DNA of 63,749 bases, filler included, from Intoshia linei (GCA_001642005.1; 8 parts of 8 records of this genome joined end to end with filler, not necessarily neighbours in it), one strand, 5' to 3'; shown: positions 1 through 35,020, counted from the whole stretch's first letter. The notes: generated from the sequence alone by a model not told the origin. A program made the numbers and translations.

Positions 1-245
1 AGATAGACCAAATCAGTTTGGGATTCCTTGATGTATATTATGCATTACGCGTTATACAGGTAAAAAAATTACATATGAGTCTAATTGGCTCATTTTCCCC
101 GACAATTATACTAATTTTTAAATGAAACGATAAAATTTTATATTTAGTTTCACTAAGCATAACATTGATATTTCGACCTATTTAAATATTAGGAATACCT
201 CTAATATATGAATATATTTTATAATCTATATTATTAAATTATTAG

Positions 246-3200
246 ATTGTCCAGACAAATGTATTACTTGTACCATCGATATTAATGATGAAATCGTTTG
301 TACATATACAAATAATTTAATTGTTAAGGATGGATGTATTGCAGATTATGTTTGGGAAAGTACTACAAAGAGCTGTCAAGGTAGATTTAAGTTTGAAGTG
401 GTTTTTTAATTTAATATTATATTGCGTATATTTGACTAAAATGAGTAGTTAGTTTTAGATAAACAGTATATTAATGTAAATATACTCATCTGTGCTGTGA
501 TTTTGTTTTGATTTAAGTTATTATAAGTAACAAATCGTAAGATAGGTTTCATATACATACATTTTATATACATATTCATACATACTTTTAATAATGATGT
601 AGCACAGATATATTCAACTTTTTTTATTTCACGGAACTTTACCCATATTATCTAGGGAAATATTAGTATGATTCAATTATATTAATCATAATTATACAAT
701 TATCATAATAATCAATATAATTGGAAAACCGGTTGAGTCGTACTAGTGTATCTTATGTTTCTGTGAATCACCAAAATCGCAATATTCATTTTAATATTCA
801 AAGATGCACATGATAAATACTTATTATTCATATATTTTATAGCATGTAATCAAATATCACCAAATTTGTTGATTTTGCAAGACTCGTGTAAAAAATGTAC
901 AGGGTTATTTTTTGATGGCACCTGTCAAAGTAAGTTAATTAAAATTATATTTCATATATAAAAATCTATATAATATGCATTAAATATTTTAGAATTTAAA
1001 TTTTTTGGAAATAATTTTCATTTTCATTTCAAATTTAAAACATACATACTTGTATAATAAATCTATTATTATATTTAAAATTTGATATTATTATTTGTAT
1101 AGCTTTGTATTAAGGCATATAATACAGGTTGCATTGGGAGAACGTGTTTTATATATATACTATTTTAAATAAGGTTGCTTACCTACAACAATAATGGACG
1201 ATTTTGAAAAATGTGATAGTTGCTTTGATTCTCTGGGAGGCTACGCTAAGCATTCTTTTTATGATATTCTATCTGTGTGTCTCGGTATTAAATTATATCG
1301 TATTATATATATACTTGTATAATTATAATTATAAGATTATAAAAAGCAGTTTATAGTATATTATATATATTAGGGTGCTTTATTTTAGTTTTTTTTTGAA
1401 TTTCAAAGACTATTTTTGTATATCATCCCCATTTTGTATAAGTAGGAGCAAACCACAAAAAAATTCAAAATTATAAAAATTTGCCAGGGCCCGGTAAGGG
1501 TAAAATTTAGGTTTTTTCATAATCTGATTTTTTATTTTCGAATGTTTTTTTCTATGATCTCCGACAACCTGTATCAGGTTTTACTTAGCATCTTCATTTA
1601 TGGTTTCAAATTTTTAAAAATGTACATTATTAACTAGAAATAAATAAAATTACCTTTAAAGATAATACAAAAATATTAGCTCATCTAAAATACTTATGTG
1701 TTGACCATTCATGTACGGGATATTGCAAAATATGCAATGTGCCAAGAGTTATCAGAGTAAATTTACATTCATGTGTGACAAATTCTGAATAATTAGATTC
1801 TAAATTTAGGTTCGTTTTTGACCTTTGTGTAATCGTGACAGTAGTTAAATTAGACGTAGAAATTATTTTTAATTCCAACAAGGACTTACATATGTATTTG
1901 ATTCTGACAAAGTTTTCCAGAAAAAAGATAACGGAATTAAGAGCCCTAAGATACCATAGATATCTTATTAATTCATTTTCTGAAACGCCATACCATAATA
2001 AATACCTCGAAAAAATTGTAAATTCTTATATAGCTGTAAATCACTTAATGTAATTTCAACTGCGTATAAGCAATTGAACCACTGTGTAACAAAAAAAATA
2101 AATCTCTATAATTTCCGTTAAAACTTGTTTATCATTTGAAATTGTTTCTTAAACATCTACATTTAAATTCAATAATAGGCTTTTATCATCCATCTTGCCT
2201 GATGAAAAGCACCTGCCACTTATAAAACAGAATAACAGCTTTAAAATCAGGTTTTAACAAATTGGTTCCAATGTCTGGTCCTCAGAAATAGTTTTTCTAA
2301 AAAAAAATAAATTTTAATAGTTCTGGAGAAAAATTTGACTTCTGTGTATGTGAACCTATTGGATAGGTTCCCAACCACGACACATACTTTAATGTAAATG
2401 CGTCCTGATTTAAGTGAATGTGTGACTATTAAATGATGATTATGTATGTATTATTTTAGAGGTTGTATGCGATGCTAGTTCCGATCCCGTAGTGTGTAAT
2501 TCTTGTCACGGTTGGTATCACGACGGTAACGATTGCATTGGTAATATTATTTTTATTTTATATTTCATATACGTTCAAATAAGATAATGACTTATTGAAT
2601 TATAAATGTTATTTTTATATTAAAAAATAAATTAGCTATTAATTGTGCTGCTAAACCTTTCCATTTAAGTAATTCTCTCCATTGCAATTCATGCGACAAT
2701 CGAATTATGCATCTAGGATTGTGTCGTATTGGTAATTGCATATTTAAATCTAATTTAATAAATATAAAAATTAAAAAAGTATAATATTATGGGAATGCAT
2801 ATATCACATGTTACATTATTACATGTATGGTTGTAAAATATTTTGTTACTGTTAAATAGAAATTGAAGTTATAAATTTTAGCTTTCAAACAGCTTAAAAT
2901 TTTACTTTGCACTTAATAATATATTTAATGTCAAATTATGATTAATTTTTTTAATTTTTAGGCAATACGTGTACTGGTATTGTGAATGATTCTATTAATT
3001 TATATTGTTATGCTAGATGGGATCAATTTAACGGTTCCTGCCAAGGTAATTATATTAATTCAATATTAATTATGTTAAAAGTACAAGTTAAAATGTACAT
3101 GCTTCCAATAATGTACATTTTACGGTTAAACTAGGTTCCATATATCAGTCTGTTTCACAATATTAGACTGAATAGCCTCATATTGATACTATAATATCAT

Positions 3201-6200
3201 CACCAACGAGTGATATATCCTCACTTATATAAAATTTTCAAATTTTAACTACTTTTATTTTATGTAAGTTGAGATGATATTAAAATAAAAAACAAATATA
3301 ATAAAGTACCCAATAAATGCTATTAATTTTTAAATGTTTCAAAATATGAAATATATATATATGTATATATGTATACTTGCTTATATATTGCGATTTTAAT
3401 TTTAATTTAAAATAGCCGTGGATTGTGCAGATGAAACAAGATTAATCGGACCAGTAATGTGTGGAGCATGTCACAATCGATATTATTATCAAGGAGCATG
3501 CCACAGTATAAATAATTTAATTTTTACTTCATTTTAATAAATTAGAAATTGATTGTATTGCTGATCCCCTTAATACACTCGAGAAATGTAGAGGTTGCAG
3601 GAGAATGTTGTATTATTGGAATGGATCATGTATTCGTATGATTTTAGCAATTTATTAATACATATTTTGATAATAATACTAATATTTACAGTCCCCGTCA
3701 CCTATTACAGTACTCTTTAAAACTGTCGTTTTAAATTAGAAATTTCTAGTGCCATATGAATTATATAATTTAGTACTATCGTTATAACACAGCACAAATA
3801 CAACTTCGACGTTTTTTTACATTTTAAAAATGATTCACATACTTTGAAAAATAATCTTTTTATAATTTGTTAAAAAATTTACATAATTTTAATAAATTTT
3901 CTAACGATAAGACTTATTTTAAAATTTATATCACAATACAAAGTTAACCTAAATAAAGACTCAAAAACCTTAAAATTAGTATGATGAATGTTGTTATGAA
4001 TAGCGTCTACTGTATTTACATTTTATAAAAATAAACATATTTTATAAATTAGTTACTGTCACTAAAATTTTGGTTAAAACTTTTGTTTATTTTAAACGCG
4101 TTTGATTGGTTTAATTAGTTCATTGTTAATTATAGTTGCTTTGATTATATTTCTTGGTAATTAGTATTTGTGCTGTAATCTCCTGCATTATGTATAACTC
4201 TATAAAAATTTGTGGATTGTTTCATCCATTATTTTAGAATCTAATTTTATAACGCTAGTGTATGTCGAGGACTGTTAATATATTAAATAATTCATGTATT
4301 CTTTTTTTATGACATATGAAAGTATAGTGTATTAATAAATCAACAAACAACGCTAAATTTTACATTTTGATTATATTAATAAGTCGGTGGTTACAAAATT
4401 GATTGTATTTATTTGTCATAATAAAGTTTTAAATGTGAAAACTGTATAAATGTCTTTCATTCTGTAACAGATTAACAAAAAATATTTTAATTTGAACGGT
4501 ACTGCATTATGTCCAATGTGAAATACATTTATAATTTAATTGAATATTTTATAGAAACAACATGTACGGTCACTTTATACACGCAATCAGAAGAATGTTA
4601 TGCGTGCGAAGGTTATTATTGGAATGGATCTCAGTGTCTTGGTAAAATTTAAATAAATGATCTTTTTTGTACATACATAAATATAGTATATAAATATAAA
4701 TATTCGATAATATTTTTATACTATATATTACAACACGTAAAATAATATATAATGATATCAATAAATTCTGCTTTTCTTTTTATCGTTAGGAATTATATAT
4801 TTTTTTATAGGTTTTGGTAAAAGTAGATTCGTTTTTTTAGTTTCATTATTTATAATTCAATAAATTATAGAATTTTTAATAATGTTTAATTTATAATACC
4901 CAATCATTTTTATCATAAAAAACGCTTTTTAATCGTCATCATATTTTGGTTAAACATCATAAAAAAATAAAAATTTACAACCTCATTATATTTTGGTCTA
5001 ATAAAACATTTTAAAACCTTCATAACATCTTGGTTCAAATATAAAATTTTAAAACCTTATTATATTTTGGTCTAATAAAAACCTTTAAATTTATTTGATA
5101 ATGTTATCACGCTTAATTATCGCAGAAGTTCAAATTATTCAGATGTGCACTTTTTAATTTCAATTTGATTTAGATTGCACTACACAAATATATATAATAT
5201 AATATTATACTATAGTATGATATATTTATTATAAAAAATATTATCAGAAAATTTTTTTATGAAACAGAAATAGTGCCACCATTGTCAAAAATTAAATAAA
5301 TTTGAACCGTTTTACGTCATATTAGCCATAAAAGGTTCAAAATTCAATGGAACATTCTCAAATTTTACTTTTTAAATGTTATACTGTAAAAACTTACTTA
5401 ATATTTTGTAGCCAAGTTTTACTAGCTAAACATAAAAGTTTTAATTGTAGACAAATACCATGCATACAATTTTTTTTAAATTGTATTTTTACTAAAAATT
5501 ATATTTCAGTGTACGAGAAAACTACCCAAAAATATTGCATAGTTAAGTTCAAATTTTGGTGACCCTAAACAGAATGCATTGTACATATCACGAATATACT
5601 ATTTATTTTAATTAATTAAATCTGAAAATATATAATCATATCATATACGATGTATAATAATATATAATGTAAGTACATTTTTTGTATATTAATATACTTT
5701 TAGTTAACATTATATATTAATGAATACATAATATCGATTAAAATATACAAATATTAAAAATTTTATTTAGCTATTGCGTGTAGTGGAATCATGGTATTTT
5801 TAAAATTAATTTGAAACAGTTGAAAGTTTAAAAGTGACCAATTTTTTATAAATAGTCAATGATATAATGATCAAAAATAAAAAATAAACAATAAAATAAT
5901 AACAATTCATCTCATCATAAAAACTTAATTTTTAATGTTGAAAAGTGGCATTGATGAAAAATGATAATTAAATAATAATTATATATTTAGCAATATTAAT
6001 TAATTTTAATTTTAATTTATATAATAACTTTTAAAAATAAATCGGTTAAAATTAAATTAAATCGATACTCTATATGAAAAATGGTTAACCTTATTTGAAA
6101 AATCGCTACAGTTTATAAAAAATATTTAACTTGAAATTAAAACATTACTACTTTATTATGACATATGAAAGTATACAGTATTAATTAATCAACAAGCAAC

Positions 6201-9200
6201 GCTAAATTTTACATTTTGATTATATTAATAAGTTGGTGGTTACAAAATTGATTGTATTTATTAGTCATAAAAAAGTTTTAAATGTGCAAAATAAATATTT
6301 GTTAATTATAAAAAATAATTTACAAGGTGTACTGAGAAAGTAATTTTTTGAGAAACACTCTAGTACACTATGAATACATTACTGTGATATTACATTATAA
6401 TAAAACTAATTTTAAATTTTAAAACTAATATATTGCTACCTTTTTTGTATTAATAATAATTTAACATAATTTAAATTGAATAATATTTGTAAATTGAGTT
6501 ATTATGTTTTTATGTTAGACGAATGATCAAAACAAATGTACCAAATGCTTTGGAAAGACGCAATTAAATGGACATTGGGTTGGTAATTGAACATAGTTAT
6601 AAAACATATTAATATATTCAGCAACGCAATGTACATCATCACTAAATCAAAACGATTGCTCTTTTTGCAAACCTTTTATGTATTTTGATTCGAATCAAAA
6701 CACATGCAAAAGTAAGTGTATACTGTATAAATTATAAAAATAATGTAATATCCCAGTGGCCATTAAATCCGATTTATCCGGATATCCGATCTGCGTATTT
6801 TTTTTTACTTTAAATTATAAATTCTAAGTAAAACTAAATTGAAAAATATTGATGTAATTTAATTGATTTATTTATTATGAAACTACTAAATACAACTTTA
6901 CAAATTTTTTTTCATTGTGACAAATTTTTCACAATTTAGTTATAAATTTTCCATTTTTTTTCTTATTACATAATACAATGACATATTAATTTTAATCCCA
7001 TTCGTCATCTAGGTTAGGGTGACCAACCTAATGATGGTAATGGGCCTAATGGTAGATTCTGATAATATAAGTGATAATTATGCGAATCTGACACATTAAA
7101 AATTTACTACCCACTGTTACTATTTATAAAAATGACAGAGGTTTAATAAAATCAATTAAATTGGCTGTGAGGTCCAAAAAAATTAAATTTCGAAATTTGA
7201 CGGGAAAAAGTTTGAATCAGCCCAAATCATGATATTAATAAAAAATATTTTGTTTGTAAACATAAAAATGTAGGGTTTACTAGAACTATACCCACAAACA
7301 AAGAAATTTGTGATCAAGCAATGGATTATTATTGGAATGGTATGCAATGTATAGGTATCTTGATACTAATATGGTTATTATGATAGTTATAAAAAGTAAC
7401 TATACCATAAATATTCATATCACACGTAGGTTTTACACCGAATTGTACTAGAGATTATATACGTCATTCAGCATATACTCAGGAAATGTGTACGGGGTGT
7501 ATCAATGCATATTTCGATCCAATGGCTCAAAACATTTGCCATGGTATATTTTTTATATGTACAATAGAAACCGCTTATAGTGATCAAAACTGATAATTCA
7601 GTACATGTTGATCAATATGTATCAATATGAAATATAAAACAATAAAAATGGAATAAGTGTAAAAATAATGTTAAAATTGTAATAATGAATAAATAAATCA
7701 TGAAAAATATATGAAAAAACTGTAAAATAAGAATTATGTGTAAAAAATCGTTATAAAAATAAAAATTTATATTATAACGCCGGCCGCACATTCCATAATT
7801 GGGGGCCGCAAATGGCCCGAGAGCCGCATAATCGACACCCCTGAATACTATTCAATTCTCAAAAAAATTCAAAAAATTATAGTTATTATTTTAGTGCTAA
7901 ATAATAAAATCCAAATACGCGTGAAATGATATCATATTACAATTATAAATTAAATTATTATAAAATGTTGGAACTGAAATATTAATAATAAATATAAGAA
8001 TATATTTGTTTTAATTCTGAATTTGGAAAAATAAGGTCACCATTTAAAATAAAATTTCGTCTTTTCAAAAAAATATGCAAATAGAAAATTTTTACCTTAA
8101 GGGTTGTAATATTTGATTTATATTTTGGGGTTGGATTAATTGGATTTTTCTCATGTGTTTGGTAAAATCAGATATTATATTTTAAAAAAAATATCTGTAA
8201 AAGTCGATTTTTTCCATTAATGTTTGGAGTTGTATTTTTTATTAAATAATATTAAATTTTATTAATAATGGAATAAAAGTTAGATTTTTGCTTAATAATA
8301 TGAGATAATGGCTTAGCGGTTCTCTAGGCTTTTTGATAATTTCACACCGTCTGTCTACTCTGTAATAAACTGATTACAGTGATCAAAAGTTCTCTGTCCC
8401 AATGTGATCACTGATCACTACAAGCGACTTCTATTGTATTTTATATATACTTTTTTCTAACATATTAAATGTATTTACATTACAGTTATATTATTGACAT
8501 GTTATTTATATTATTTACATTATTTATATGTTGGTTAAGTTAACAGTAAGTAAAGTAAACTCATGTTTAAAGTAACGTGATACTGAATGCCAATTGGATT
8601 ATGTACTGGGCACTACTTGGCATAATTGCTTGTACATTTTAATGTAAGATAATTTTTTCATAATTAAGAAATTTTCTATATTACTTGTTAGTTTAAAATA
8701 CTAGCCGTTATATTGATCTGCTTATAGGATGAATGGCAATTATGTTTTCTAATCCAAATATTCATGAGCTGATGACCATGAAACCGTTGTTAATATTATA
8801 CTTTTACAATTTGCATTTATTAATTTTAATTTATATACATTATTTTGTATTCACATTTACATTTTAAGAACTGGATTGTTCTAATCTATACGACATTGCT
8901 AGTGTCGAAAAAAAATGTAAAAAATGTCAAATCACGAAACAAGGCCTAGTTTGGGAAAATTTATCCTGTACACGTATGTTTCACTATATTATTTTCTATT
9001 TTATGACAGCTACGCGTATGCTATACTTTTATATATTAATTTATCAACTATACATTATATTTATACATACAGTCAAAGTCCTTATTAACGGAATTTTAAA
9101 TTATTTATTTTTTTCATAACGAATTTGCAGGAACCAAAAATTCGTTAATAATAATTTTATCTCTAAAGCTCTAGATTCTAGAGTCTAGAATCTATTTTTA

Positions 9201-12200
9201 AGAGAATTTAGAAGTCAATTTATTACGTTTTTTATCTAATTGATAACAAGAAATATGACCATTTAATGGTTTTTATTTAAAAAAATTAAATTCCGTTAAC
9301 TAGGGTGTTACTATGGGGAAAATGTCATATTGACGGAATTTTAAATTTTGTTAATAAGGACTGAAACTGTATTATATTTTATTTTATTATTGTACATTAT
9401 CATTGTATGTATTTTAGATGTTGACTGTAGTCAACCAAATTTGTTGGACAGTATTCACTGTTTAGCATGCCCTCTAACTAAATTTGAGAATGGAATATGT
9501 TATGGTAAAAATAAAAAAAAAATTCAAATAAATTATAATTTAGCAATACCAGCGTTAACATGTTTGACCGAAGCCAAATCGTTGGATACGTGTAATGCCT
9601 GTAAACCTGCAAATTCACTTACGACGACACAATGGTATGAATCATACGGTGGTGCTTGTGAATGTAATATTAAACAAAATGCTTATCAAAATTAACATTT
9701 AGTTTATAACGTTATAACCTAAAATATTTTAGTTTGTGTTGAAAATTGTAAAGTTTGCGACGATACAGGATGCTCACAGTGTATCGACGGATATTATTTA
9801 AATGGTGGCTGTATTGATTGTCAATCTGTATCTCCACCAACTCTAAAACTTTGCGCTTTATGTAAGGGAAGATTCTGGAGTGGTGATTCCTGCAAAAGTA
9901 ATTTAATTAATTAATTGGCATATACATTATGTTATTTCACAAAATGTTGTTTTTGACGTAGGACAAAAATTCGTAGGAAACACTTTTACAATTTTTCTCA
10001 TGAAATCTGCTTTCGTGCAATTTGAATCACTATTTTCATTATAAATGTTTTTTACAATTTTATTTTTGAAATATTCTTTAAAACCTTGTTTCCTTCACTT
10101 GTAATTTGATTGATTGTCAAGTCAGATTAACAGTCCGAGATAAAATAGGAAGACGTATTAATATACAAAATTTAGTATAATTGTGGTACCAAACTACATT
10201 GTACTGTTGACATCTTTTTAAAACATTTGATATTCATTTTTTGTTTTACTATTTGATATACTTTAATAAAATAATTAATAATTATACATCAGGTATAGAT
10301 AATATTTTTATAGATTGCATGGATAAGTGTGAAGAATGTACTAACTTGACAAGCTGTAGTAAATGTGAAATTGATTCAATTTGGAATAATAATATGTGCG
10401 AAGGTATTATTAATGGATATATCTTTTAAATTTTAATAATTTTATCTAATAATGAAAATCAATATTATATTCAACAGAATTTTTTTCATAGTTAATGTAC
10501 ATTAATAATAATAATGTAATGTTGTAATGTATATATAATAATATATATAATATAATAATGTAACATATTATTATTACAATGTATTAGAGTTATAATTTAT
10601 AATTAGCATGTCTTGTTCACACACAACAATCATGTGAAGATTGTTCGAACGATCAAAATACTCTTGTTTTTATCAATTCTCATTGCGAATGTAATTGTCA
10701 TATTTTATACAAGCTATGCTAATGGTGGTTGTGAAATATCGTAGAGATTTCCAGGAAAAATAATCGAAAAAATTTGTATGGAGTATTACACTGACATTGC
10801 TGGCTTGTAGTTCAATATTGAATTAGCGATGTTTCAAACATTAATTTTTACAAAAAATAATAATTTTAATTTATCTCTACAAATGTTAATAACGATACAT
10901 ATTAATTTATTCATAAATTTTAGTACAATAGTTTATATAACAAGTTCAGACTAGTTCCATACCTAATACAAAATTTGTAAAATAAACACAAAAATTTGTG
11001 CTAAATTTAAAATATCATGTAAAAAGCCTTGTAGATGTGGCTAGGGGTATATAAAACCAATCATCGTTTGCAAAAAGTTTTGTATGAGCCTATTATTCAT
11101 TTTCGGACGGCCAGATATTATTAGATTCGGCTCTGTCTTAGTGTACTTACGTAAATGAACAAATTTTAAATTAAATTTTTAAATGTGTATTACGGTTAAT
11201 GGTTTTTGGTTAAAACTTGTACAAGAATACACCAGGTTTTTTTAATGAGTTGAGATTAGGCGAATTTGAATATCTTTAAAATATATTCATATGGTATTAG
11301 GGTGAAATCTTTATATAAAAATTAATTCCCAACCGAAATCGCAATATACAATCTAATATTTAATCTAATTATATTAGATTGTTATACCGAAATAATTTTG
11401 GATACTCAAAATTTGTGCGAAAGATGCGGTTTGATAACAACTAATAATGTGAATTCTAAATTTTGGGATATCAGTACAATGCAGTGTTTAAGTAAGAACC
11501 TTATTATTTTATGTAATTAAAAACCTATAGATATTTAATTTATTAATATTTTATATATGATACATTAATATTATTTATTATTGATATTCATAGATATACA
11601 TTATTTTTGTATATGATGTTATATACATTATGAATAAATTAATGTAATACCTTGATATAAGTAAAAAATATATGTACCAATAATTTATATGGTCGTGTCC
11701 AAAAATAACTGATATGGAAAAGTATTAAGATGTGAATGGTTTAAAATGAAATTTGGAACATTCAAAGATAATCAATATTTATGTAGTGTAATGAATTTTC
11801 AGATTCACCTGAAAATTTTTTTTAAATTGACTGAACCATGAATTATTGATAAAATATATATTTAACTTGTACTTTTATTTATTTTATTTATACGACATTT
11901 TCACGTTCGTAATGTTACTTATAGCAAGGGTATGCAATAAACGTAAGCATATAGTGCGATAATTTGACATTATTTATCAATCATTTTTATTTTTTACCAT
12001 TATATTATGAAAATCAAATAGATTGTCCAATAAATTGTGCAAAATGTGATAAAGCCAATACATGCAATTCATGTCATAACGACTATTATTTTAATAATGC
12101 AACGTTTCAATGTGAAGGTATATTGAATAATTTCATTTATATGCTGAATATATTACATTAAACATTTAGCCTGTCCATTAAATTGTGATGTATGTATTTC

Positions 12201-15200
12201 AACGTCATCTTGTGTATCTTGTAAATACAATTTTTTTTATGATGATATCAATAATGGTTGTGTTGGTACGTGTTGGTTTGAAATATAATTAACACTTAGA
12301 CACTTTCATTGTTTTTTACATGAAATTATACAAAATCTGATAAGCTAAATGTCCAGAATTTAAATACAAAAGTAAGAATATACTAGCTACAGAATAAACA
12401 CGCCTCTATCGAAAAGTGTGGTTCTATATAGTGCTTCCGCAATTATTCATCGATTGTTTACCAATGAATCGAATAACATGATAAAGTTATGCTCTTTTTA
12501 TCAATTGTATTTTACAAGATTTTGATATTGGAATTATTATATTTAAAATGGAAATACAATACAAGTTGTAGTATAATTAGTAAGATTTAAATAAGAGCTT
12601 TTAATAGAACAAGCAAATTCAACTTAGGTTGATAATATAGATAAATAACAATCAATCTCATCTTCAATCTTCATAGTGATATTATATATCACTACTTAAG
12701 TTAAATTATTAAAATTTTCCCAAGCTTTAGACTTTGATTTCATCCCTTAATATAGAAATAATTATCCCTGAACTAGAAAGTAATTTTATTGGTTTCTATG
12801 TTACATACCGAATTAGTTTTACGAAAATATCAAGTGTCAAAAAATGTCACAAAAAATAATATAACTTAACAACAAATGAAGTAATACTGTACAAAATAAA
12901 TTTCAGTTGTTCGATTAATTGTTTGACGAACAAACAAATGAACAATTATTCATTGCGGAAGCACTAGTTCTATAACAAAAACTATTAAAATGGAATGTTG
13001 ACACTTTAATATTTAAAACTTGCAATTAAATTTACTAGCCAAAATAGCATGTCAGTAATTTAAATTATTTCATACAAATAAAAAAAATTAAAAATAATAG
13101 ATAAATGGGCGTGTTTATAGTCTAATGCCTAAGATTGAAATCTCATTTTGTACTTTTAATTGTACATTTTATATACACATTTTATTGTCATTTTTAAAAT
13201 CTCACATAAGATATTTTGGTGTATAAGTGTTAATATATTTTTATTTTATTCTAAAGTAGTATTTTTAAATACGATTAAATTAATAGTTAAAAATGTAATA
13301 TTATCAATTAATTTAGCGTGTTTGAATAATTGTATTAGTTGTAATGATATCGAATCGTGTATAGAATGTGAACAATACATGTTCTTTGACAAAAAAAACA
13401 ACAAATGTCAAAGTATGGTTTTTTCAAAAATCCAAAATTACATTATTAAATTACGATTTAATTTAGAATGTCCGCAATTTTGTGCTATTTGTGATGAATT
13501 AAATACATGCATTGAATGTAATTACAACATGTATTGGGATTCAGAAATGACTCTATGTAGAGGTACGCTATATTTTTATTAATGATTTTCACTGTTAGAA
13601 ATTTTAATTATTGTGTTTCCTCCTTTATTACGTTTATTATTATTATTAATTTTGTTTGGTTGAACTAATAATTCCGTTTTATAGCCTCTCGTCATTTGAT
13701 ATTCATTTTTATTTATTATAATAAATACTAATAATTGATTATATGAATTATTAATGATCTAATATGGAAATATTAAATATTGGTTATTTTATCCTTATCC
13801 GCAACAAATTTGCAGGATATAACTTAACAAAATGTATTTCAGTAAGAATAATAAACATTAATTAAGATAAATAATAAATTAGAAAATAATAATAATAAAT
13901 AATAATGTTGTATTTAGATTGTATACCAGATTGTTCGATTTGTAGCACAAATTCTATATGCGAAAAATGCGTAGCTGGTTACTTTTTTGAAAATGAAACC
14001 AAAAAGTGTACATGTAATAATTGAAATATGTATTACAGTCAGACTTGTTAATAGTGAACTTAACTGATATTACTAACTTGATGCATGATTAATAATGTTT
14101 CATTTCACTGTCATTTTCATTATTTATGATTTTTTTATAGTGAACATTAAAAAAATTCGGAACCAAATGTTCATTATCCACAAGTCTGACTGTATTATTT
14201 TTAACAGAACATAAATGCGATAATTATTCAATATTTAATATTCAAATGAATTTTAAGTTTTATAAACTATAAAATTTAGCATGCAAAAGCAATTGTTTCG
14301 AGTGTACGAATAAAACGGAGTGCGTGAGCTGTTATAGTGGATACTGTGTAGATGAGAAAAATGATTGCATATGTACAATTTTGTCATTTTTAAAATATTA
14401 CACTAACAAACAAAATTGTTTTATAATACCAGTTTTTTATTTTTTTAAATCTGGATCAAATTATCATATTATTATACATATTTAAAATAAAGTGGCCAGA
14501 AAAAATACGTTCTATCAATTTTAGTTTATTTGGTGATAAATTTAAAGCCAAAACTACTCATCTATTTTGATGAATAAAATTTTTCGGCTTAAAATTTATT
14601 CCAAATAAACTAAAATTAATATACGTATTTTTTCTGGACATAAGCATAACTTAAATTTAGTCACTACAAAAAATTGTCACTCGTGTAAATACGATTCTAT
14701 ATCTCAAAGTCAATCATGTACCTCATGTGTTCAAGGCTATAATTTAGAATTTTGTTTGGGTAAGTCACGTTTAAATTATTAATGTTATTTATGATTTAAT
14801 AAATATTAATATATAGAATGCTCGTCATTTTGTGTAAAATGCTTAGATAATACTCAATGTGTGGAGTGTCGTATAGGAACCTACTTGGAGAATTCTTTGT
14901 GTAAAAGTATTCTGGTGTAAATTTTATTTTTTAAATCATGTTTAGAATGCCCAAATAATTGTAAAGATTGTTTTTCAAATTTAGAATGTAACGAATGCAG
15001 TGAAATGTTTTATTTTAATAATGTATCAAATGAATGTGAAGGTATAACTAATCTTATTACTCCTTTATTATTTATTTGATCTTACGTTTTGACGAGTACA
15101 AAATATTTATGGCCAAGGTTTTCGATATATAGAGGAGCATTAGAAACGTATTTTTGAAACATCTTTTCTGATTAATATGTCAAACGTAAAATTAAACTTT

Positions 15201-18200
15201 GACGAATAATTTATGTTTTTTTCTACATTTTTTACCAATGGCTAAATTAAAAAAAATTTATAAAATGTTAAAATGTTTAAATATAACCACTTTTTTTTAC
15301 AAGTTTGTATTTATTGCAAAATTGATGGGAGGGTATAATTTTAATGATTTAAATTTTAATAGCATGCCCCAAAAATTGTTTATCCTGTCAATCTGAAAAC
15401 AACTGTGAACAATGCATTAAATCAAATCAATTTTTTAATGGAATAAATGCATGCGATGGTTAGTTTAATATTTATTTATTATGTTAATTATAATTAAACT
15501 ATATAATTATAGCATTGTACAATATTTTGGTGTAGTTTCAAAATCGATGAATCGGTTTGAACCATCATGATTGTTAGAAAATAACACAAATTTGATATTT
15601 TTAATATATCAAGTGATAAAATATTTTCAATGCATAATTTTTAGTTACATTAAGGGGTTTTGCATTTTGAAAAATTTTAGGTTTTAAAAGAACAGTAAAT
15701 TATAAAAAAATTGAATGATTCGAAATTTTTTTAATCTTGTCTAGTAATTTTACTTTAATATGGTCCGCAATAAATTTTATAATTTATTACCAGTCCGCCG
15801 TGAAAAAAATGTGGGAACCCCTGTTTTAATACATCTAATTAATTCTGGTGAATTATCCTTTAAAACTCTTAATTTATACATACATTCATTATGTGTGTAA
15901 AAAAATATGCATATGTATAACATACATTATTATTTTCTACATTTAATAGATTGCATTATAAATTGTCAAAAATGCTATTCTACTGATGAATGCGATGTAT
16001 GTATGCCTGGATATATTATAAATACGGATAGAACAATATGTCTAGGTAACAATTATTTTTGAATTAATTTCAATGTACGATATGTACCGTAAAATGTAAT
16101 TTTGTTTTTTATGGAATTTTTATAACTGAAATTATTTTGTTTTTGCACGCTTAAATTTATTAGCGACAACTAAAAATGATTATTCTTTGAAGATTTTATT
16201 TTTGCAGTCATATAACAAACTACTTTTTTAAAATTTTCAAATATAATTTTAAATTTAAGAATATTTAAATTTCTCGAGAGCAATCAAAATGTATGATATA
16301 TGTAAATGGAACATACATTATATATTTTGGGAAATCTTTAATTTTAATTAACATTTCTAGCCTTGAAAATTACATTAAATTTTTTTATATATTGTAATAT
16401 ATATTTTAGATAATTAATTATTAACATTATGTAAATTATCTAAATTAAGTTATGTAGTTACTACATCTAAAAAATCCAAAAGAATGGATAATTTTGAAAA
16501 TTAATTTTAGAATGTCCTGCCAATTGTGAAGAATGTCAATCTGGCGGTGTTTGCATAAAATGTGATGAATATTCATATAGAGAAATTGACAATAATCAAC
16601 ACGATTGTAAAAGTATATGATAATTAATTATGTTCATTGAAATAATTACGTTTTCACCGGTATAATCAGTTTGCCCAGTTCTTTTGAGAAGTTATTGAGA
16701 AAGGTTCATACGTTAACATTTAAAAAATTACCATAAAAACCTTTCTAAAATTTGGCTTAAAACATGGTGCCGACACTTTCTTCACTTATGGCCACCATTG
16801 TCAAAACGTTAAAATCTTTTAACAGTTTTACATGCCTATTAGTCATAAACCGTGAAAATTCAATAGCACATGTGCCAGACACATTTGTATATTTTAATTA
16901 ACCGAATTTTCCGGTTATTGTATATGTATATGTCCATTTCCATAATCAGGGCAACACTATTTTCTATATTTAGAGCATTTAATTAATACATTAATTTAGA
17001 ATGCTCTGGTATAATTGACTATTGTAATAAATGTATGCTCAGGAATGAACAATTAATTTGCATTGAATGCGCTCAAGGATCGTGTTTATCAGATAACGAT
17101 TTATATTGCATCAGTATAGCTTTAAAACATTTTTTAACTAATATAGCTAATATTAATATAAACACAATTGGAATAATCCTATTTAGAAAGTTCGTCCAAC
17201 TGTTTACAATGTATTGATCCAAAAACTGAGTGTTTGAAATGTGAAAATACGTATCATCTCACAGAAGACAAAATACAATGTACTAGTAACAGATGTTATA
17301 CATGCTCAACAAAAGAATGTGACTATGAGGATACCAATAATATGATAGGTTGTCCTGACTTAGGGTTGTCAAATTCGTGCTGGGTAAAATAATTATTTCA
17401 TAATATATCTTTTAACCTTTGAACGTGTTTAATTTTCAAGAGAGTTACCACAGTTGATTAGTTTTTGTGCGCGATTCAACGTGACTTATCAGTTGATCGA
17501 ATAATTTGTTATTTTAATAGAATGATGAACTTTAACATTTTAATTTTAAACGAAATTTTAGGGAAACCCGTCATAAATTGGCTTTTATTGTTAAATACAT
17601 TTCATTATAATGTATTTTAATAATATTGTATAGAAAATAGTATAAATTACTATACCATTTCACTATCGATATGATAATAGCTAAATTCAATGTAATAGTG
17701 TGGGTTTATTAGAAAAACCTTACGTAAATATAAACAAAAACTTCGTTACAACTAATTAAAATTATAACCGTTTAATAAATAGTTTTGTTGGATACATCCT
17801 AATTTATATAATATGCTACGCGATTTTTGTTTGTGTGTGTGTTCCACTTTATTGAAATAACTATCAGTCTTAAAATTTTATAAAGTCCACATTTTAATTA
17901 CAGTTTTTTCCGGGATGTATAACAAGATAAATTTCAACCTCCCAAACTCATATCTTACAGGTCAAAAACCCCAATTGTTCCTCTTTTTGAAAATCAAACG
18001 AGTTGGAGAATTTAAAAAAATATATACGCTGATACGGATTTTAAAATCATAATCAGTATCATAAATTTAAATTTAAAAAAATTATATCTTCAGAGCCAAA
18101 ACCCCAAATTACCCTTATTTTTTTAATGAAAACAGCCCTAGAATTTCAAAAACTTTACAGGTGGTACAGTTGTATCGTTTTAAAACACACAGAAAATTTC

Positions 18201-19418
18201 AATCCAAATACGTGACGACTTCACGGTCAGAAAACATTTTAGTATTCATTTTTTTTCGAAATATTTTATTAAAACAAAAAATTTGAAATAATTAACTATC
18301 CGAAAATTAAAAAAAAAAGATTATTCTGATAGAGCTTATTCCAGTTGATATAATTACAAAATTTCAACCCTGAAATCTACGCATTCCCGGTGAAAAATAA
18401 TTTTTAATATATTTTTCAAATATTTCGATTAAAATAAAAATTGAAAATGTAAATATTGATCCTACAATTTTAAAAATAAAGTGCAATTTGTAGTCTACAC
18501 ATTTCCAATTATAATAAAAATCTATATAATTCATTCCTTCGGAATATTTTTCATTTCTATGCAATTTTTAAATTTCAAATTCTCATTTTCAAAACATTTT
18601 GAATAAAATTTAAAATAAAAACTAAACAAAAAACTAAAACAACTGTTAATATCATTTTTATATTTATTACAATCCTTTGCAATTTTGGTAAAATTAGACT
18701 AAAATAATATTTTTATAAAGTGAATATAATTGGTATTTTGAAGTATTTATTAAATTGGTATCATCACATTGAAAATCACCAAATAGGTTTTTATAATTTT
18801 ATTTTTTCTGGAATTTATGCTATTTATGAAAATTTTTAAGATTGTACTGTTTTTACTTTATTTTTAATATTATAAACACATTCTGTCTAATAAATTAAAA
18901 AAATGGGATAACTATTGTTTTATTTAAAATTCTTTACGTAAATATTAACAACAAAAAATTAAGATGGAATAATTGACTTTAAAGTAAAAAATAATGTGAT
19001 ATGATGGTTCCACCTAAAACAAATTTGGAAAACACTCCTTTGAAGGATTGATAATAGTGAATAGTAGGATTTTTAAGTTAAATTTTCAACGTGAATTTAT
19101 TTTTTTAGTTTAATGAAAATATGCCCTCGGCAGAGCTAGGTGTTGTTTGTACGTAGTACATTACATTCAACCTAGTATTATATAATATACATGGTATTAT
19201 AATATTATGTTAATGTCATATTAATCATAATAATAATATGTTATTATGACATATTTAACTGTAAAAATAAAATTCATATTATATTATTAATTTATTATTA
19301 GATAAGTCATACTCAAATTAACAACAAAAATTACTATTCTCGTGCATGTAAAAATGTAACTTGTGACGATCAATCTCTTCAAATTTTATGCAAAACTACA
19401 GATTCCACTGGAAACTCG
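246..19418 (+). CDS. Giant multi-exon cysteine-rich (CxxC/furin-like repeat) protein with C-terminal Ly6/uPAR-like domain; partial at both ends
   Basis: Manually spliced AG/GT-bounded exons: 246-380, 843-929, 1174-1284, 2460-2540, 2636-2731, 2962-3045, 3416-3505, 3546-3635, 4555-4641, 5771-5793, 6519-6582, 6622-6711, 7274-7354, 7430-7543, 8869-8973, 9418-9504, 9544-9663, 9733-9897, 10314-10403, 10607-10690, 11378-11491, 12022-12117, 12170-12265, 13317-13412, 13467-13562, 13918-14013, 14280-14372, 14661-14759, 14817-14906, 14946-15041, 15363-15458, 15950-16045, 16511-16612, 17000-17113, 17187-17383, 19302-19418. They join into one open frame, e.g. DCPINCAKCDKANTCNSCHNDYYFNNATFQCE, ending ...RCYTCSTKECDYEDTNNMIGCPDLGLSNSCW|ISHTQINNKNYYSRACKNVTCDDQSLQILCKTTDSTGNS. 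Confidence 0.9.
1371..2400 (-). mobile_element. Degenerate hATm-type DNA transposon (transposase pseudogene) in an intron
   Basis: The minus strand gives AGAFHQARWMIKAYY (~2170-2215) and IRYLWYLRALNSVIFF...SEFVTHEC, resembling hATm transposase motifs PGAxHHARWMAKAIY and HLWYLSEE. There are many stops, and a TAGGGTG terminus at 1371. Confidence 0.6.
3688..4013. mobile_element. TA-flanked MITE (Tc1/mariner/pogo type)
   Basis: TACAGT...ACTGTA ends with imperfect inverted repeats. Confidence 0.45.
4165..4516 (+). pseudogene. Decayed cysteine-repeat pseudo-exons within the Cys-rich gene
   Basis: CITL*KFVDCFIHYFRI*FYNASVCR followed by a GA instead of GT donor (~4190-4269); YKCLSFCN...YFNLNGTALCP with a frameshift (~4444-4516). 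Confidence 0.5.
4301..4426. mobile_element. Short MITE, second copy at ~6151-6275
   Basis: Near-identical ~125-nt copies with inverted ends CTTTATTATGAC...GTCATAATAAAG. Confidence 0.6.
4925..5085. repeat. Degenerate ~41-nt tandem repeat
   Basis: Repeated (C/T)ATTATATTTTGGTCTAATAAAA...TTTTAAAACCT units, ~4 copies. Confidence 0.5.
7560..8439. mobile_element. TA-flanked MITE (pogo/Tigger-like) containing nested fragments
   Basis: Inverted ends TACAATAGAAACCGCTTATAGTGATCA / TGATCACTACAAGCGACTTCTATTGTA; internal hAT-type end ...CGACACCCCTG at ~7843. Confidence 0.7.
9068..9371. mobile_element. TA-flanked MITE
   Basis: TACAGTCAAAGTCCTTATTAAC...GTTAATAAGGACTGAAACTGTA inverted ends. Confidence 0.65.
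12429..12966. mobile_element. hAT-family MITE
   Basis: TIR TAGTGCTTCCGCAAT / ATTGCGGAAGCACTA flanked by a perfect 8-bp TSD GTTCTATA. Confidence 0.85.
14034..14194. mobile_element. TA-flanked MITE
   Basis: TACAGTCAGACTTGT...ACAAGTCTGACTGTA inverted ends. Confidence 0.7.
14488..14642. mobile_element. Short inverted-repeat element; related copies at ~19866 and ~43195-43345
   Basis: TAAAGTGGCCAGAAAAAATACGT...ACGTATTTTTTCTGGAC, with a shared core AAATTTTTCGGCTTAAAATTTATTCCAAATA. Confidence 0.55.
17797..19175 (+). mobile_element. Non-autonomous Helitron (~1.4 kb), full-length copy
   Basis: A|TC 5' end (TCCTAATTTATATAAT plus TG microsatellite), CTAG|T 3' end, subterminal palindrome TGTACGTAGTACA, no TSD; many copies in the window. 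Confidence 0.8.
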
Positions 19419-20731
19419 GTATCATAATTACATTAATTACTTATTTATTATTTAATTTATTATGCTACATAAAATTGTATATTCTCTCTACAATCCGCCT
19501 ATTCTGTCGTTTGACAATCATCAATATCCCCATAAATCTTATGAACAAATTCATTTTATCAAAATGGGGTCAAGGCATGAAAATTTCTTAAATCAAGTTA
19601 GTATAAGAGTAAGAAAGAAAAATTAAAAGGAAAAGAATGATTAAATAATTGCATAAAAAATGTTTATATTTTGCCGCCCGCGAAATTTGTAAATGTATTT
19701 TTTGGGCCTCACTCGATATCTGTTTGGACCACTGATCTACATTATAACAATTATAACTTGACGTATTTTCACCTAATGCACACATTAACCTGTGTAAAAT
19801 AATGCCTTTAATTATAATTAACAGCTTTTGATTTGTTCTTACAGATAGTCGAACATTAGTTTAGTTAAAGTGGCCAGAAAAATACTTACGGAAAATTTTT
19901 CGGCTTAAAATTTATTCCAAATAAACTAAAAGTGATACAGTATAACCCCGTTTTGGGGCACCTTTTTTGAAAAGTGCCCCAAAGAGCGGGGTGCCCAAAA
20001 AACTGAGGGTATTGAACGATCATAGTATTTAATCATAGTAAGAAAGTTGATAAAGATTCGTTGATGGGGTATATCACAAAAAATTAAGCATTTATTTAAA
20101 AAATAGATTTTTATACTATTAAAAAAAATTGAAATTAGAATTGAAAATTTGATAAACGCATGAATATCGAGACAAGACAATAACAACTTAATATTTACAT
20201 AATATCTGATAAAAACAAATGTAACTTTTTATCTTTTAATAATTGAGCTATTTCCAATTTTGTGTCATAATTAGAGCCATTCAAACATTATGCTCTTATT
20301 ATGCTCTAAAGTCGTTAAGCAACAATAAATAAATTCAAAATAAAATAAAATGTAAACAAATAAACGCAATTATGTAATTCACAATGATGCAAACTTCTTT
20401 AAGAGCATAACATTGCCAAACAAAATAACAACTTTTTTGAGGTGCAAGAATAAAATTTAGTGCATATGGAAGAGATTTTTTTTAAAATACGCCTAAAGTT
20501 CGAAAAGGTGTCTAAACTAGGCATATTTGAAGGTCAATAGAAATGTTAAATAAAGTACATATATGGATTATTATATATGATTGGAAAGGGAAAATCTTTG
20601 CGTTACAACTTGCGAAATTATTAACAGAATTGAATACTATTGAACGAAATGTAGCGGAATATATGTAAAAAAATATCATTATAATATTCAATAAGCAAAT
20701 AAATATTAGTTCATTCTACATGTATAATATA

Positions 20732-20830
20732 NNNNNNNNNNNNNNNNNNNNNNNNNNNNNNNNNNNNNNNNNNNNTTAATTAATTAANNNNNNNNNNNNN
20801 NNNNNNNNNNNNNNNNNNNNNNNNNNNNNN
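20732..20830. other. Assembly gap with artificial all-frame-stop linker (also ~22766, 40986, 44578, 46945, 51654, 61507; plain gap 57786)
   Basis: Identical N-run/TTAATTAATTAA/N-run structure at each site. Confidence 0.95.
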
Positions 20831-20963
20831 NAACTGAAAAAAAGTTTGGTACTAATTTAATATTTGTTTCTTGGCCAATTTCTTTAACTATAAGGTCTAG
20901 AAATAAAACTGGTACCCACCCGCCCATTTTATCACCACTTTTAACGAATCATTTAAAAATTAC

Positions 20964-34154: not shown

Positions 34155-34473
34155 ATATATTATTTTATTCATAATTGAATTGACACGAACAGTGAACACT
34201 TGGTGAAGGGTAATAAAAATTATATATAAGAGATTTTTGTCAGTTTTCATATTTAATCATTTACAAAATAGATTAGTATTCATATATTTTGTTTCTGAAA
34301 TATGTACTACAATTTCGGAGTAAATGAGAATAATTTCAACTTACAACTTGTAGACTACAAGTCCAGTTAAAAATTTAAAAGAGTTGCAATTAGGAAAACA
34401 AATGTAGTTTTGAGATTATGATAGCATATATTCTGAATCAAATTCATTTCACTGTGACGATTGTAAACAAAAA

Positions 34474-35013: not shown

Positions 35014-35020
35014 ATAAACT

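What the first reader, a model, noticed from the sequence alone, without database searches (positions are those of the whole stretch)
246..17113. Cassette array of 33 one-repeat, phase-1 symmetric exon units encoding a divergent CxxC surface-protein stalk
Seen: 32 exons (81-165 nt, all multiples of 3, all phase 1-1) plus one split pair. Nearly all encode one Cys repeat, and they share little beyond Cys spacing and an aromatic residue. Known: long CxxC/furin-like arrays build Giardia VSPs and ciliate immobilisation antigens, and symmetric exons can be skipped or duplicated in frame, as in Dscam-like diversification. Inference: this may be a modular variant surface protein of a (probably parasitic) animal, diversified by exon skipping and exon birth/death. 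Caveat: phase 1-1 exons are common in ordinary extracellular mosaic proteins, so alternative splicing is unproven.
Basis: partly seen in the sequence, partly recalled or inferred. Interest (0 to 1): 0.78.

Follow-up and report, generated by a model that had tools for sequence, protein, structure and literature searches.

The report
Fixed cysteine-repeat surface rod of Intoshia
In the parasitic worm Intoshia linei, 36 short exons are spliced one after another into a single long cysteine-repeat protein that is likely anchored on the cell surface; a sister gene keeps the same repeats in the same order and free-living worms have proteins of the same layout, so it is likely a fixed surface rod, not a splice-shuffled variant antigen.

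Summary
The gene is Intoshia linei (orthonectid) A3Q56_04891; NCBI's protein matches my exon model. It continues beyond the finding into a likely Ly6/uPAR (LU)-type domain.

The variant-antigen reading is not supported. Three runs each hold one spliced 4.4-4.6 kb contig containing every exon. In the 3' half all 13 listed joints in four runs join neighbouring exons, with no sequence differences; contigs can hide rare isoforms. A paralogue at 31% identity is collinear repeat by repeat, with equal cysteine counts in 29 of 32 units. Compensating cysteine swaps appear to couple adjacent exons.

Capitella and Paralvinella have the same layout (signal peptide, CxxC array, LU-like domain, GPI-like tail) without collinearity. 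Best reading: a predominantly single-isoform, likely GPI-anchored disulfide rod from an uncharacterised annelid family, with at least three copies in Intoshia, changing by gene duplication and rare whole-repeat gain or loss. Fold, anchor and function are inferred.

The parts
246..380 (+). exon 1 in window (135 nt, phase 1-1), 6 Cys; about 800 nt of mRNA lie upstream, outside the window
   Evidence: joint in X2/X3/X5
843..929 (+). exon 2, 4-Cys repeat
   Evidence: joints
1174..1284 (+). exon 3, 4-Cys repeat
   Evidence: joints
2460..2540 (+). exon 4, 4-Cys repeat
   Evidence: joints
2636..2731 (+). exon 5, 4-Cys repeat
   Evidence: joints
2962..3045 (+). exon 6, 3-Cys repeat (odd count shared with the paralogue)
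   Evidence: joints
3416..3505 (+). exon 7, 4-Cys repeat
   Evidence: joints
3546..3635 (+). exon 8, 4-Cys repeat
   Evidence: joints
4555..4641 (+). exon 9, 4-Cys repeat
   Evidence: joints
5771..5793 (+). exon 10, 23-nt microexon, phase 1-0, first half of the split unit
   Evidence: joints
6519..6582 (+). exon 11, phase 0-1, second half of the split unit (3 Cys in the unit)
   Evidence: joints
6622..6711 (+). exon 12, 4-Cys repeat
   Evidence: joints
7274..7354 (+). exon 13, 2-Cys repeat, 16 of 26 residues identical in the paralogue
   Evidence: joint
7430..7543 (+). exon 14, 4-Cys repeat
   Evidence: contig piece; length sum
8869..8973 (+). exon 15, 4-Cys repeat
   Evidence: length sum; NCBI protein
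9418..9504 (+). exon 16, 4-Cys repeat
   Evidence: length sum
9544..9663 (+). exon 17, 4-Cys repeat
   Evidence: contig piece
9733..9897 (+). exon 18, two repeats (6-Cys + 4-Cys)
   Evidence: contig piece
10314..10403 (+). exon 19, 6-Cys repeat
   Evidence: length sum
10607..10690 (+). exon 20, 4-Cys repeat
   Evidence: length sum
11378..11491 (+). exon 21, 4-Cys repeat
   Evidence: length sum; its 3' end is the loose end before 12022 in X4
12022..12117 (+). exon 22, 6-Cys furin-like repeat
   Evidence: joint
12170..12265 (+). exon 23, 6-Cys repeat; aligned to a gap in A3Q56_02727 (one repeat fewer there)
   Evidence: joints
13317..13412 (+). exon 24, 6-Cys repeat
   Evidence: joints
13467..13562 (+). 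exon 25, 6-Cys repeat
   Evidence: 5' joint; length sum
13918..14013 (+). exon 26, 6-Cys repeat
   Evidence: 3' joint and contig piece
14280..14372 (+). exon 27, 7-Cys repeat (extra Cys)
   Evidence: joints
14661..14759 (+). exon 28, 5-Cys repeat (lacks first Cys); the 7+5 pair is in all three paralogues
   Evidence: joints
14817..14906 (+). exon 29, 6-Cys repeat
   Evidence: joints
14946..15041 (+). exon 30, 6-Cys repeat
   Evidence: joints
15363..15458 (+). exon 31, 6-Cys repeat
   Evidence: joints
15950..16045 (+). exon 32, 6-Cys repeat
   Evidence: joints
16511..16612 (+). exon 33, 6-Cys repeat
   Evidence: joints
17000..17113 (+). exon 34, 7-Cys repeat (extra Cys, this gene only)
   Evidence: joints
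17187..17383 (+). exon 35 (phase 1-0, outside the finding): last repeat (5 Cys, lacks first Cys) fused to the first half of the LU-like domain
   Evidence: joints
19302..19418 (+). exon 36 (phase 0-0): middle of the LU-like domain with the R-x-C motif; spliced on to an exon beginning TCEQCCDTDK that is not in the window's called sequence
   Evidence: joint and loose end; (0 matches)

Best explanation
This is most of the Intoshia linei gene A3Q56_04891, whose exons are spliced in one fixed order into a long protein of CxxC cysteine repeats ending in a likely Ly6/uPAR (LU)-type domain, predicted to be a GPI-anchored, disulfide-stapled rod that likely serves as a structural coat element on the cell surface. 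Shown: the exon model, in-order splicing in the assembled transcripts, two paralogues, and repeat-by-repeat conservation with one of them. Inferred: (1) a signal peptide and about seven more 6-Cys repeats lie in the roughly 800 nt upstream, as in paralogue A3Q56_00828, giving about 1,480 residues in all; (2) the unseen last exon completes CC-x4-CN and a GPI signal, as in paralogue A3Q56_02727; (3) each repeat folds as a small disulfide module, so the chain projects tens of nanometres from an LU base at the membrane, with 12 N-glycosylation sequons in the known part; (4) it likely works as a glycocalyx or coat element of the microvillar cuticle, the cilia or the plasmodium surface. The one-repeat-per-exon, phase 1-1 layout is the fossil of old tandem exon duplication. 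It lets repeats be gained or lost in frame over evolutionary time, but it is not used as a cassette system in the main transcript. Diversity comes from a few long-diverged gene copies.
For: One spliced contig of 4565, 4403 and 4459 nt in X2, X3 and X5 spans all exons, and its coordinates match the summed exon lengths exactly. All 13 listed joints at 11900-20730 join neighbouring exons in 4 runs of 2 studies, with no rows hidden and no differing letters listed over 15 exons / 1,580 nt. The NCBI protein is identical to the model. A3Q56_02727: 31% identity over 96% of the query, E 1e-154; 162 of 165 aligned Cys kept against 202 of 927 other residues, and equal Cys count in 29 of 32 units; unit order matters (1641 against 951 +/- 60, maximum 1086 in 40 shuffles); 26 of 33 units score better against the paralogue than against their own gene. 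Compensated 7+5 Cys pairs at exons 27/28 (all three paralogues) and 34/35 (this gene only) imply cross-exon disulfides (inference). The C-terminal Cys skeleton with invariant R-x-C is shared with Capitella, Paralvinella and an unnamed JGI protein. All five Pfam-named Atlas rows shown for the paralogue's C-terminus carry LU-type families (DUF753, QVR, UPAR_LY6, Toxin_TOLIP, Activin_recp) at 0.85-0.88, which is a lead only. In the paralogue and those three relatives, the last 20 residues hold 13-15 hydrophobic and 0-1 charged residues, with no cytoplasmic tail. The N-terminus of the known part matches residues 242-347 of the signal-peptide-bearing A3Q56_00828 (score 134 against a shuffle maximum of 96).
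Against: All expression evidence is assembled contigs, which drop rare variants; in the 5' half 213 joint rows and 162 difference rows were not shown, and the 99% filter would exclude alleles more than 1% diverged. Neither the signal peptide nor the GPI signal of this gene was seen. Pfam gave 0 families for the whole protein and no LU family for the C-terminal stretches; PDB sequence searches gave nothing significant. Both AlphaFold models failed (mean pLDDT 32 and 38). In a leave-one-out profile test 4 of 6 C-terminal domains were recovered; A3Q56_00828 and Paralvinella were not, and an Intoshia-only profile found neither annelid protein. The LU gene layout is atypical: phase-0 introns, and no intron before the domain. 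No localisation or stage data exist here, so the coat function is the weakest step.
Confidence: 0.68

Rival explanations
1. A small variant-coat family like ciliate immobilization antigens: each gene is single-isoform, but the three or more paralogues are switched between life stages or hosts, so the surface varies by gene choice.
For: At least three paralogues about 30% identical and a hint of a further CxxC transcript (loose end at 12165). Same plan as i-antigens: hydrophobic ends, periodic Cys, GPI (PMC3341644, passages). The retention of several long copies in a much simplified parasite suggests they are not redundant (inference).
Against: Few copies were found, against 17-34 i-antigen genes and about 100 VSPs. 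This gene is present as a spliced contig in all 4 spliced runs laid. Position-specific repeat conservation and the same layout in free-living annelids fit a conserved structural role. Expression of the paralogues was not examined.
Confidence: 0.14
2. A recognition or adhesion receptor: the repeat rod or the LU domain binds a specific partner (gamete, host tissue or matrix) and is not merely a coat.
For: LU loops generally mediate protein-protein contacts, and LU proteins act in fertilization and complement control (PMC6600238, passages). Individual repeats keep distinctive non-Cys residues between paralogues, for example 14 non-Cys identities in 26 residues in exon 13.
Against: The LU-like domain sits at the predicted membrane base under about 1,300 residues of rod. 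No partner or known binding domain was found.
Confidence: 0.12
3. One reading: a modular variant surface protein diversified by in-frame exon skipping (Dscam-like) and ongoing exon birth and death.
For: 32 symmetric phase 1-1 exons could be skipped in frame, and most joins re-create a CxxC across the junction. One-repeat differences exist between paralogues. Contigs cannot exclude rare isoforms.
Against: All exons are present in one contig in 3 runs; 0 of 13 listed 3' joints skip an exon. A 6-frame scan of all 35 introns found only one Cys-rich stretch (intron 3), which the contigs splice over. No multi-copy intronic motif near the exons that could act as a selector (a weak test). No recent exon duplicates. 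10 of 35 introns are 75 nt or shorter, while skipping is associated with long flanking introns (PMC6142364, passages). Coupled 7+5 Cys exon pairs.
Confidence: 0.05
4. An ordinary conserved mosaic gene such as PCSK5/furin or FRAS1, seen only in its cysteine-rich part.
For: Furin-like repeat spacing; weak Furin-like_2 scores, E 0.14 and 0.033, below the curated cut-off.
Against: Only 795-813 nt lie upstream in three contigs, too little for the prodomain, subtilase and P domain (about 600 residues, recalled). The whole contig is 4.4-4.6 kb, too short for FRAS1 (about 4,000 residues, recalled). The paralogue with an intact N-terminus goes from signal peptide straight into repeats. No such protein among the 17 hits.
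Confidence: 0.01

Closest known systems
I. linei hypothetical proteins A3Q56_02727 (OAF69529.1) and A3Q56_00828 (OAF71400.1)
   Same: Paralogues with mixed 4-Cys and 6-Cys repeats and an LU-like end. A3Q56_02727 is collinear over the whole length; A3Q56_00828 is collinear mainly in the 3' half (1000 against 838 +/- 52, maximum 948).
   Different: About 30% identity; one repeat more or fewer against A3Q56_02727, and a differently built 4-Cys region in A3Q56_00828. All are uncharacterised.
Capitella teleta CAPTEDRAFT_205275 and Paralvinella palmiformis LSH36_15g03064
   Same: Signal peptide, more than 100 CxxC, LU-like C-terminal domain, GPI-like hydrophobic tail, in free-living annelids.
   Different: About 2,000 residues. 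Repeat order is not collinear with the Intoshia gene (620 against 639 +/- 25; 755 against 691 +/- 33, shuffle maximum 781), so one-to-one orthology is not shown. The Capitella protein lacks the canonical CC-x4-CN ending.
Diplomonad variant-specific surface proteins (Giardia, Spironucleus; also reported in the myxozoan Sphaerospora)
   Same: More than 10% Cys and many CxxC; Spironucleus cysteine-rich membrane proteins are among the sequence hits (E 1e-28).
   Different: VSPs have a transmembrane segment with a conserved cytoplasmic motif and vary by switching among many genes. Here there is no PF03302 hit, an LU-like base, a GPI-like tail in the paralogue, and few copies.
Ciliate immobilization antigens
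   Same: Predicted GPI-anchored surface protein with periodic cysteines; works like a coat protein in the preferred reading.
   Different: Their repeats are 60-100 residues in 5-6 copies in Ichthyophthirius against about 30 residues in 35 or more copies here; no LU domain is mentioned in the passages read; mutually exclusive expression is untested here.
Ly6/uPAR (LU) domain proteins, including Quiver/sleepless and DUF753 types
   Same: C-x2-C start, R-x-C, CC-x4-CN ending (complete in the paralogue), followed by a GPI-like tail.
   Different: LU domains occur mostly alone or as LU-only repeats and rarely in a non-homologous context (PMC6600238). Here one sits under a long CxxC array, has 12 Cys and different intron phases.
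Dscam1 mutually exclusive exon arrays
   Same: Tandem, similar-length, frame-preserving exons from old duplications.
   Different: There one exon of an array enters the mRNA (PMC6071210 abstract); here all do.

Membership tests
Dscam-type mutually exclusive / cassette exon array | Only one (or a subset) of the array's exons enters the mature mRNA | tested here: not met
   All 36 exons in one contig in X2, X3, X5; 13 of 13 listed 3' joints consecutive in 4 runs
Dscam-type mutually exclusive / cassette exon array | Docking site with multiple selector sequences in the introns | tested here: inconclusive
   Repeat scan of 1-19500 showed no intronic family with more than 3 copies among the 20 of 25 families shown; short or degenerate selectors would be missed
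Dscam-type mutually exclusive / cassette exon array | Minor skipped isoforms in raw reads | not testable with these tools
   Only assembled contigs were served
Diplomonad VSP | More than 10% Cys and more than 5 CXC/CXXC motifs | tested here: met
   14.9% Cys, 69 CxxC; definition from 10.64898/2026.02.11.705288
Diplomonad VSP | N-terminal signal peptide | tested here: inconclusive
   5' end is outside the window; present in paralogue A3Q56_00828 by hydropathy
Diplomonad VSP | Single transmembrane segment followed by a conserved cytoplasmic motif | tested here: not met
   Tested on the collinear paralogue, whose hydrophobic tail runs to the last residue; this gene's own tail was not seen
Diplomonad VSP | Pfam PF03302 match | tested here: not met
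   0 families for P0001, P0002 and P0003, while the Spironucleus protein scores E 3e-16
Ly6/uPAR (LU) domain | 60-90 residues with the 10-Cys signature | tested here: met
   By inspection: 10 canonical plus 2 extra Cys in about 90 residues in A3Q56_02727; in this gene 11 of the 12 are seen (8 in exons 35-36, 3 in the loose end) (definition PMC6600238)
Ly6/uPAR (LU) domain | Asn after the last Cys | tested here: inconclusive
   Present in A3Q56_02727, Paralvinella and the JGI protein; for this gene the 30-letter loose end stops just before it
Ly6/uPAR (LU) domain | Profile match to an LU family | tested here: inconclusive
   Pfam: none at E up to 1 for 6 of 6 C-terminal stretches. Atlas: 10 of the 10 best family-bearing hits share one clan, but scores are 0.85-0.88
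Ly6/uPAR (LU) domain | Typical two-exon set flanked by phase-1 introns | tested here: not met
   The domain starts inside exon 35 and is cut by two phase-0 introns
Ly6/uPAR (LU) domain | Three-finger fold | tested here: inconclusive
   AlphaFold mean pLDDT 37.6; no fold search run on it
Ciliate immobilization antigen | 5-6 tandem repeats of 60-100 residues with periodic Cys | tested here: not met
   About 30-residue repeats, 35 in the known part
Ciliate immobilization antigen | Mutually exclusive expression of paralogues | not tested
   No locus or expression data for the paralogues were fetched
PCSK5 / furin | Prodomain, peptidase S8 and P domain before the Cys-rich region | tested here: not met
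   At most 271 codons upstream; none in the paralogue with an intact N-terminus
FRAS1 | About 4,000 residues with VWC, CSPG and Calx-beta domains (recalled) | tested here: not met
   Contigs are 4.4-4.6 kb and end in an LU-like domain

The most novel reading that the evidence does not exclude
An undescribed animal family of giant GPI-anchored CxxC rods standing on an LU base, inherited from free-living annelids and multiplied in Intoshia into a small set of coat proteins that are switched between the host-dwelling plasmodium and the swimming adults: a metazoan counterpart of ciliate immobilization antigens and the main host-facing surface of an orthonectid.
Probability: 0.15. Interest if true: 0.7.

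Novelty: new variant of a known kind. Interest (0 to 1): 0.33.

Why it matters
The exciting claim, splice-generated antigenic variation, does not hold up, and the gene is already annotated as a hypothetical protein with the same exon model. What remains is modest but real. It defines an apparently uncharacterised architecture (long CxxC array, LU-like domain, GPI-like tail) shared by an orthonectid and free-living annelids, and LU domains are rarely found under a foreign domain array. A heavily simplified parasite keeps at least three long copies, which makes them concrete candidates for its cuticle or host-facing coat. The compensated cysteine swaps give testable disulfide predictions for a repeat type that AlphaFold could not model.

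Tried and rejected
No whole genome was held, so the paralogues' exon structure, the 5' exons and the last exon could not be read from DNA. The last exon's first 30 nt have 0 matches in the window. No run was listed as RNA by its record; X2, X3, X4 and X5 are called spliced only because their contigs join GT-AG introns. Pfam on single exons gave only sub-threshold scores and on the whole protein none. PDB sequence searches: 0 hits for P0001; two integrin-beta hits at E 0.15 for the C-terminal profile, rejected as chance. AlphaFold on the three paralogues (pLDDT 32) and on the C-terminal alignment (pLDDT 38) was unusable, so no fold search was run. A word-based search with the last 297 residues of A3Q56_02727 found only itself among 265 candidates. 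The profile search of 1.84 billion representatives never ran because the queue was full, so the family's range is known only from 17 hits. Loose ends at 2759 and 9756 and three non-GT-AG joints were set aside as repeat or chance matches. Earlier findings of this scan: none by place, sequence or words. Literature: no paper in the held library has both 'Intoshia' and 'A3Q56'. Searches for furin-like + Ly6 + GPI + lophotrochozoa and for LU domain + CXXC + GPI returned only unrelated reviews. Subscription papers on the I. linei genome and transcriptome are not held, and their supplements may list this gene.

Full report
Observation. The window is AT-rich eukaryotic DNA (GC 21-29%) with N gaps; the first called stretch runs 1-20731. 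A blind scan for AG/GT-bounded, stop-free, Cys-patterned segments gave 30 clusters in 1-17400, against 0-2 in 20 Markov-2 simulations, and none on the minus strand. Adding the exons that this rule misses gives 36 exons. The joined frame is open for 1192 codons, with 178 Cys, 69 CxxC and 12 N-glycosylation sequons. The 5' half is built mostly from 4-Cys repeats and the 3' half from 6-Cys furin-like repeats.

Identity. A search with exon 35 returned one protein, I. linei A3Q56_04891 (OAF67373.1, partial, 1191 aa, on a 20,731-nt contig). It is identical to my model. I. linei is an orthonectid: a plasmodium lives in the host and releases short-lived swimming males and females with an annelid-type microvillar cuticle (PMC12249979, passages). 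Its introns are short, median 57 bp (PMC6543705, passages); 10 of the 35 introns here are 75 nt or shorter.

Splicing, the decisive test. Six runs hold part of the locus; I laid five. X1 gave contigs that run through introns. X2, X3 and X5 each gave one spliced contig (4565, 4403, 4459 nt), and X4 one of 2407 nt covering the 3' half. In one search, 12 GT-AG joints link exons 1-13 consecutively in X2, X3 and X5, including the 23-nt microexon; 3 other listed joints are not GT-AG, and 213 rows were not shown. In one search (11900-20730, 99% likeness, 1% share) 13 joints are listed and none is hidden; all link neighbouring exons in all four runs. The 14th expected joint (13562-13918) is not listed and lies beside repeats the tool skipped. 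Contig coordinates give 1545 nt from exon 1 to exon 18 and 1719 nt from exon 18 to exon 35 in three runs, equal to the summed exon lengths. The assembled transcript therefore contains every exon. These are contigs, which drop rare variants, so minor isoforms are not excluded. No differing letter was listed over the 15 exons in runs of two studies (2016 and 2024). Of 40 differences listed, two are exonic (one silent, one Ala to Val); both appear at full depth in all four runs laid there, so they are differences from the assembly, not among runs. 162 rows were not shown.

Ends of the gene. The three long contigs extend 813, 795 and 808 nt upstream of position 246, so at most 271 codons precede the known part. 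Downstream, the gene passes from the last repeat into a different Cys pattern in exons 35-36 and is spliced to an exon reading TCEQCCDTDK (loose end in X4 and X5) that is not in the window. X2 has 174 nt after exon 36, enough for the roughly 40 residues that follow the same point in the paralogue.

Relatives. A whole-length search gave 17 proteins among 857 candidates: the query, two I. linei paralogues, two annelid proteins, two Spironucleus proteins, one Tetrahymena protein and nine unnamed ones. A3Q56_02727 aligns over 96% of the length at 31% identity. It keeps 162 of 165 aligned Cys but only 202 of 927 other residues, and has the same Cys count in 29 of 32 units, including the odd 3-, 3- and 2-Cys units. 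Shuffling unit order within repeat class drops the score from 1641 to 951 +/- 60. For 26 of 33 units the best match in the paralogue beats the best match within the gene; the best match is the collinear one in 17 of 31. Each gene has one 6-Cys repeat that the other lacks. No two exons of this gene exceed 64% DNA identity. The array is therefore old, ordered and position-specific, with rare whole-repeat gain or loss. A3Q56_00828 has a signal peptide followed directly by repeats; its residues 242-347 match the start of the known part (134 against a shuffle maximum of 96), which fits the roughly 800 nt missing upstream. Its 4-Cys region is built differently, so larger repeat changes occurred at that older split.

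Coupling between exons (inference). Exon 27 has a seventh Cys and exon 28 lacks its first; all three paralogues share this. Exon 34 has a seventh Cys and exon 35 lacks its first; here the other two paralogues have the normal 6+6. A gained Cys matched by a lost Cys in the next repeat points to a disulfide across the exon border, so those exons are unlikely to be free cassettes.

C-terminal domain. A3Q56_02727 ends in a roughly 90-residue domain with 12 Cys, an R-x-C motif and CC-x4-CN, then 28 residues whose last 20 hold 14 hydrophobic and 1 charged residue. Capitella CAPTEDRAFT_205275, Paralvinella LSH36_15g03064 and unnamed P0015 end alike; 11 columns are invariant in the six-way alignment of last repeat plus domain. 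The LU signature is 10 Cys in 60-90 residues with Asn after the tenth, often followed by a GPI anchor (PMC6600238, passages). The Atlas's named neighbours are all LU-type families at 0.85-0.88, a lead only. Against: no Pfam LU hit, failed AlphaFold models, atypical intron phases, and a leave-one-out profile that recovers 4 of 6 members and 0 of the 11 other proteins; an Intoshia-only profile finds P0015 but neither annelid. That alignment was chosen after inspection, so the test is partly circular. I call the domain LU-like and the anchor GPI-like. Repeat order is not shared with the annelid proteins, so the layout is shared but orthology is unproven.

How it most likely works. Shown: an ordered, fully spliced Cys-repeat chain of conserved design. 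Inferred: secretion, GPI anchoring, an LU base at the membrane, and a glycosylated disulfide rod of about 40 repeats projecting outward. The likeliest role is structural, as a coat or glycocalyx element on the microvillar cuticle, cilia or plasmodium surface (about 0.68 for the whole reading; the site of action is the weakest step). Rivals: paralogue switching as in ciliate i-antigens (0.14), specific receptor or adhesin (0.12), splice-diversified antigen (0.05), PCSK5/FRAS1 (0.01).

Comparison with what is known. It works like an immobilization antigen or VSP in being a Cys-rich surface rod, but fails their membership tests: no transmembrane-plus-tail in the paralogue and no PF03302 match for VSP (definition from bioRxiv 10.64898/2026.02.11.705288, passages), and different repeat length and number for i-antigens (PMC3341644, passages). 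It is not Dscam-like, where one exon of an array is included (PMC6071210, abstract). Phase-symmetric exons are the normal mark of mobile extracellular modules (PMC6600238), and skipping is linked to long flanking introns (PMC6142364, passages). The sizes of PCSK5 and FRAS1 are recalled, not from a call. I found no description of the CxxC-array + LU + GPI layout in the held library (listings only); subscription papers and their supplements were not available.

Verdict. Observation confirmed, interpretation partly supported, main hypothesis not supported. New variant of a known kind; interest 0.33.

Noticed in passing
window 12165-12200 (loose end in X2, X3, X5): Another long contig matches the start of exon 23 and, read by eye in frame, runs ...KKFCLACPLNC. 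Neither known paralogue has this motif, so a fourth CxxC-repeat gene may exist.
   Followed up: partly
window 2962-3045 and 5771-6582: Two non-adjacent units have 3 Cys, and the paralogue has 3 Cys at both places: a possible long-range or inter-chain disulfide.
   Followed up: partly
window 1680-1774: Cys-rich open stretch in intron 3 with AG/GT borders (phase 1-0); the spliced contigs skip it. Chance or a decayed exon.
   Followed up: partly
window 17400-19300: Intron 35 holds high-copy repeats (summed contig depth up to about 13,000 in X1 and up to about 6,000 in the spliced runs).
   Followed up: no
window 9067-9372, 12429-12966, 14031-14197, 14513-14621; 4303-4453 with 6152-6302: Intronic inverted-repeat pairs that look like small non-autonomous transposons, and a 151-nt direct repeat at 91% identity.
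   Followed up: no
window 20732-20831 and similar gaps: Assembly gaps written as N runs around TTAATTAATTAA (read at 20776, 22810 and 51698; eight such N-run pairs); the gene's last exon may lie in or beyond the first.
   Followed up: partly
window 21791-22006, minus strand: Ankyrin-repeat gene exon (Pfam Ank_2 E 5e-9), facing the Cys-repeat gene's 3' end.
   Followed up: no
window 34414-39583: LRR ORF (LRR_4 E 1e-9), a minus-strand mitochondrial ribosomal protein ORF (MRP-S35 E 4e-5, just under the cut-off) and an EF-G-type GTPase gene (GTP_EFTU E 3e-38; EFL1-like by recall).
   Followed up: no
window 50309-50668 (+) and 55109-55312 (-): Protein kinase exon (Pkinase E 1e-21) and arginyl-tRNA synthetase exon (tRNA-synt_1d E 2e-20).
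   Followed up: no
window 59994-60706 and 61610-62152: Transposase remnants: HTH plus DDE_3 (weak) and a hAT dimerisation domain (E 2e-9).
   Followed up: no
window 25266-33543: Several exon-like ORFs on the plus strand with no Pfam family above cut-off: one or more unidentified genes.
   Followed up: no
P0013 and P0016 N-termini: The Capitella and Paralvinella proteins carry basic motifs (REKR, RWRR) after the signal peptide that look like furin cleavage sites (recalled consensus).
   Followed up: no
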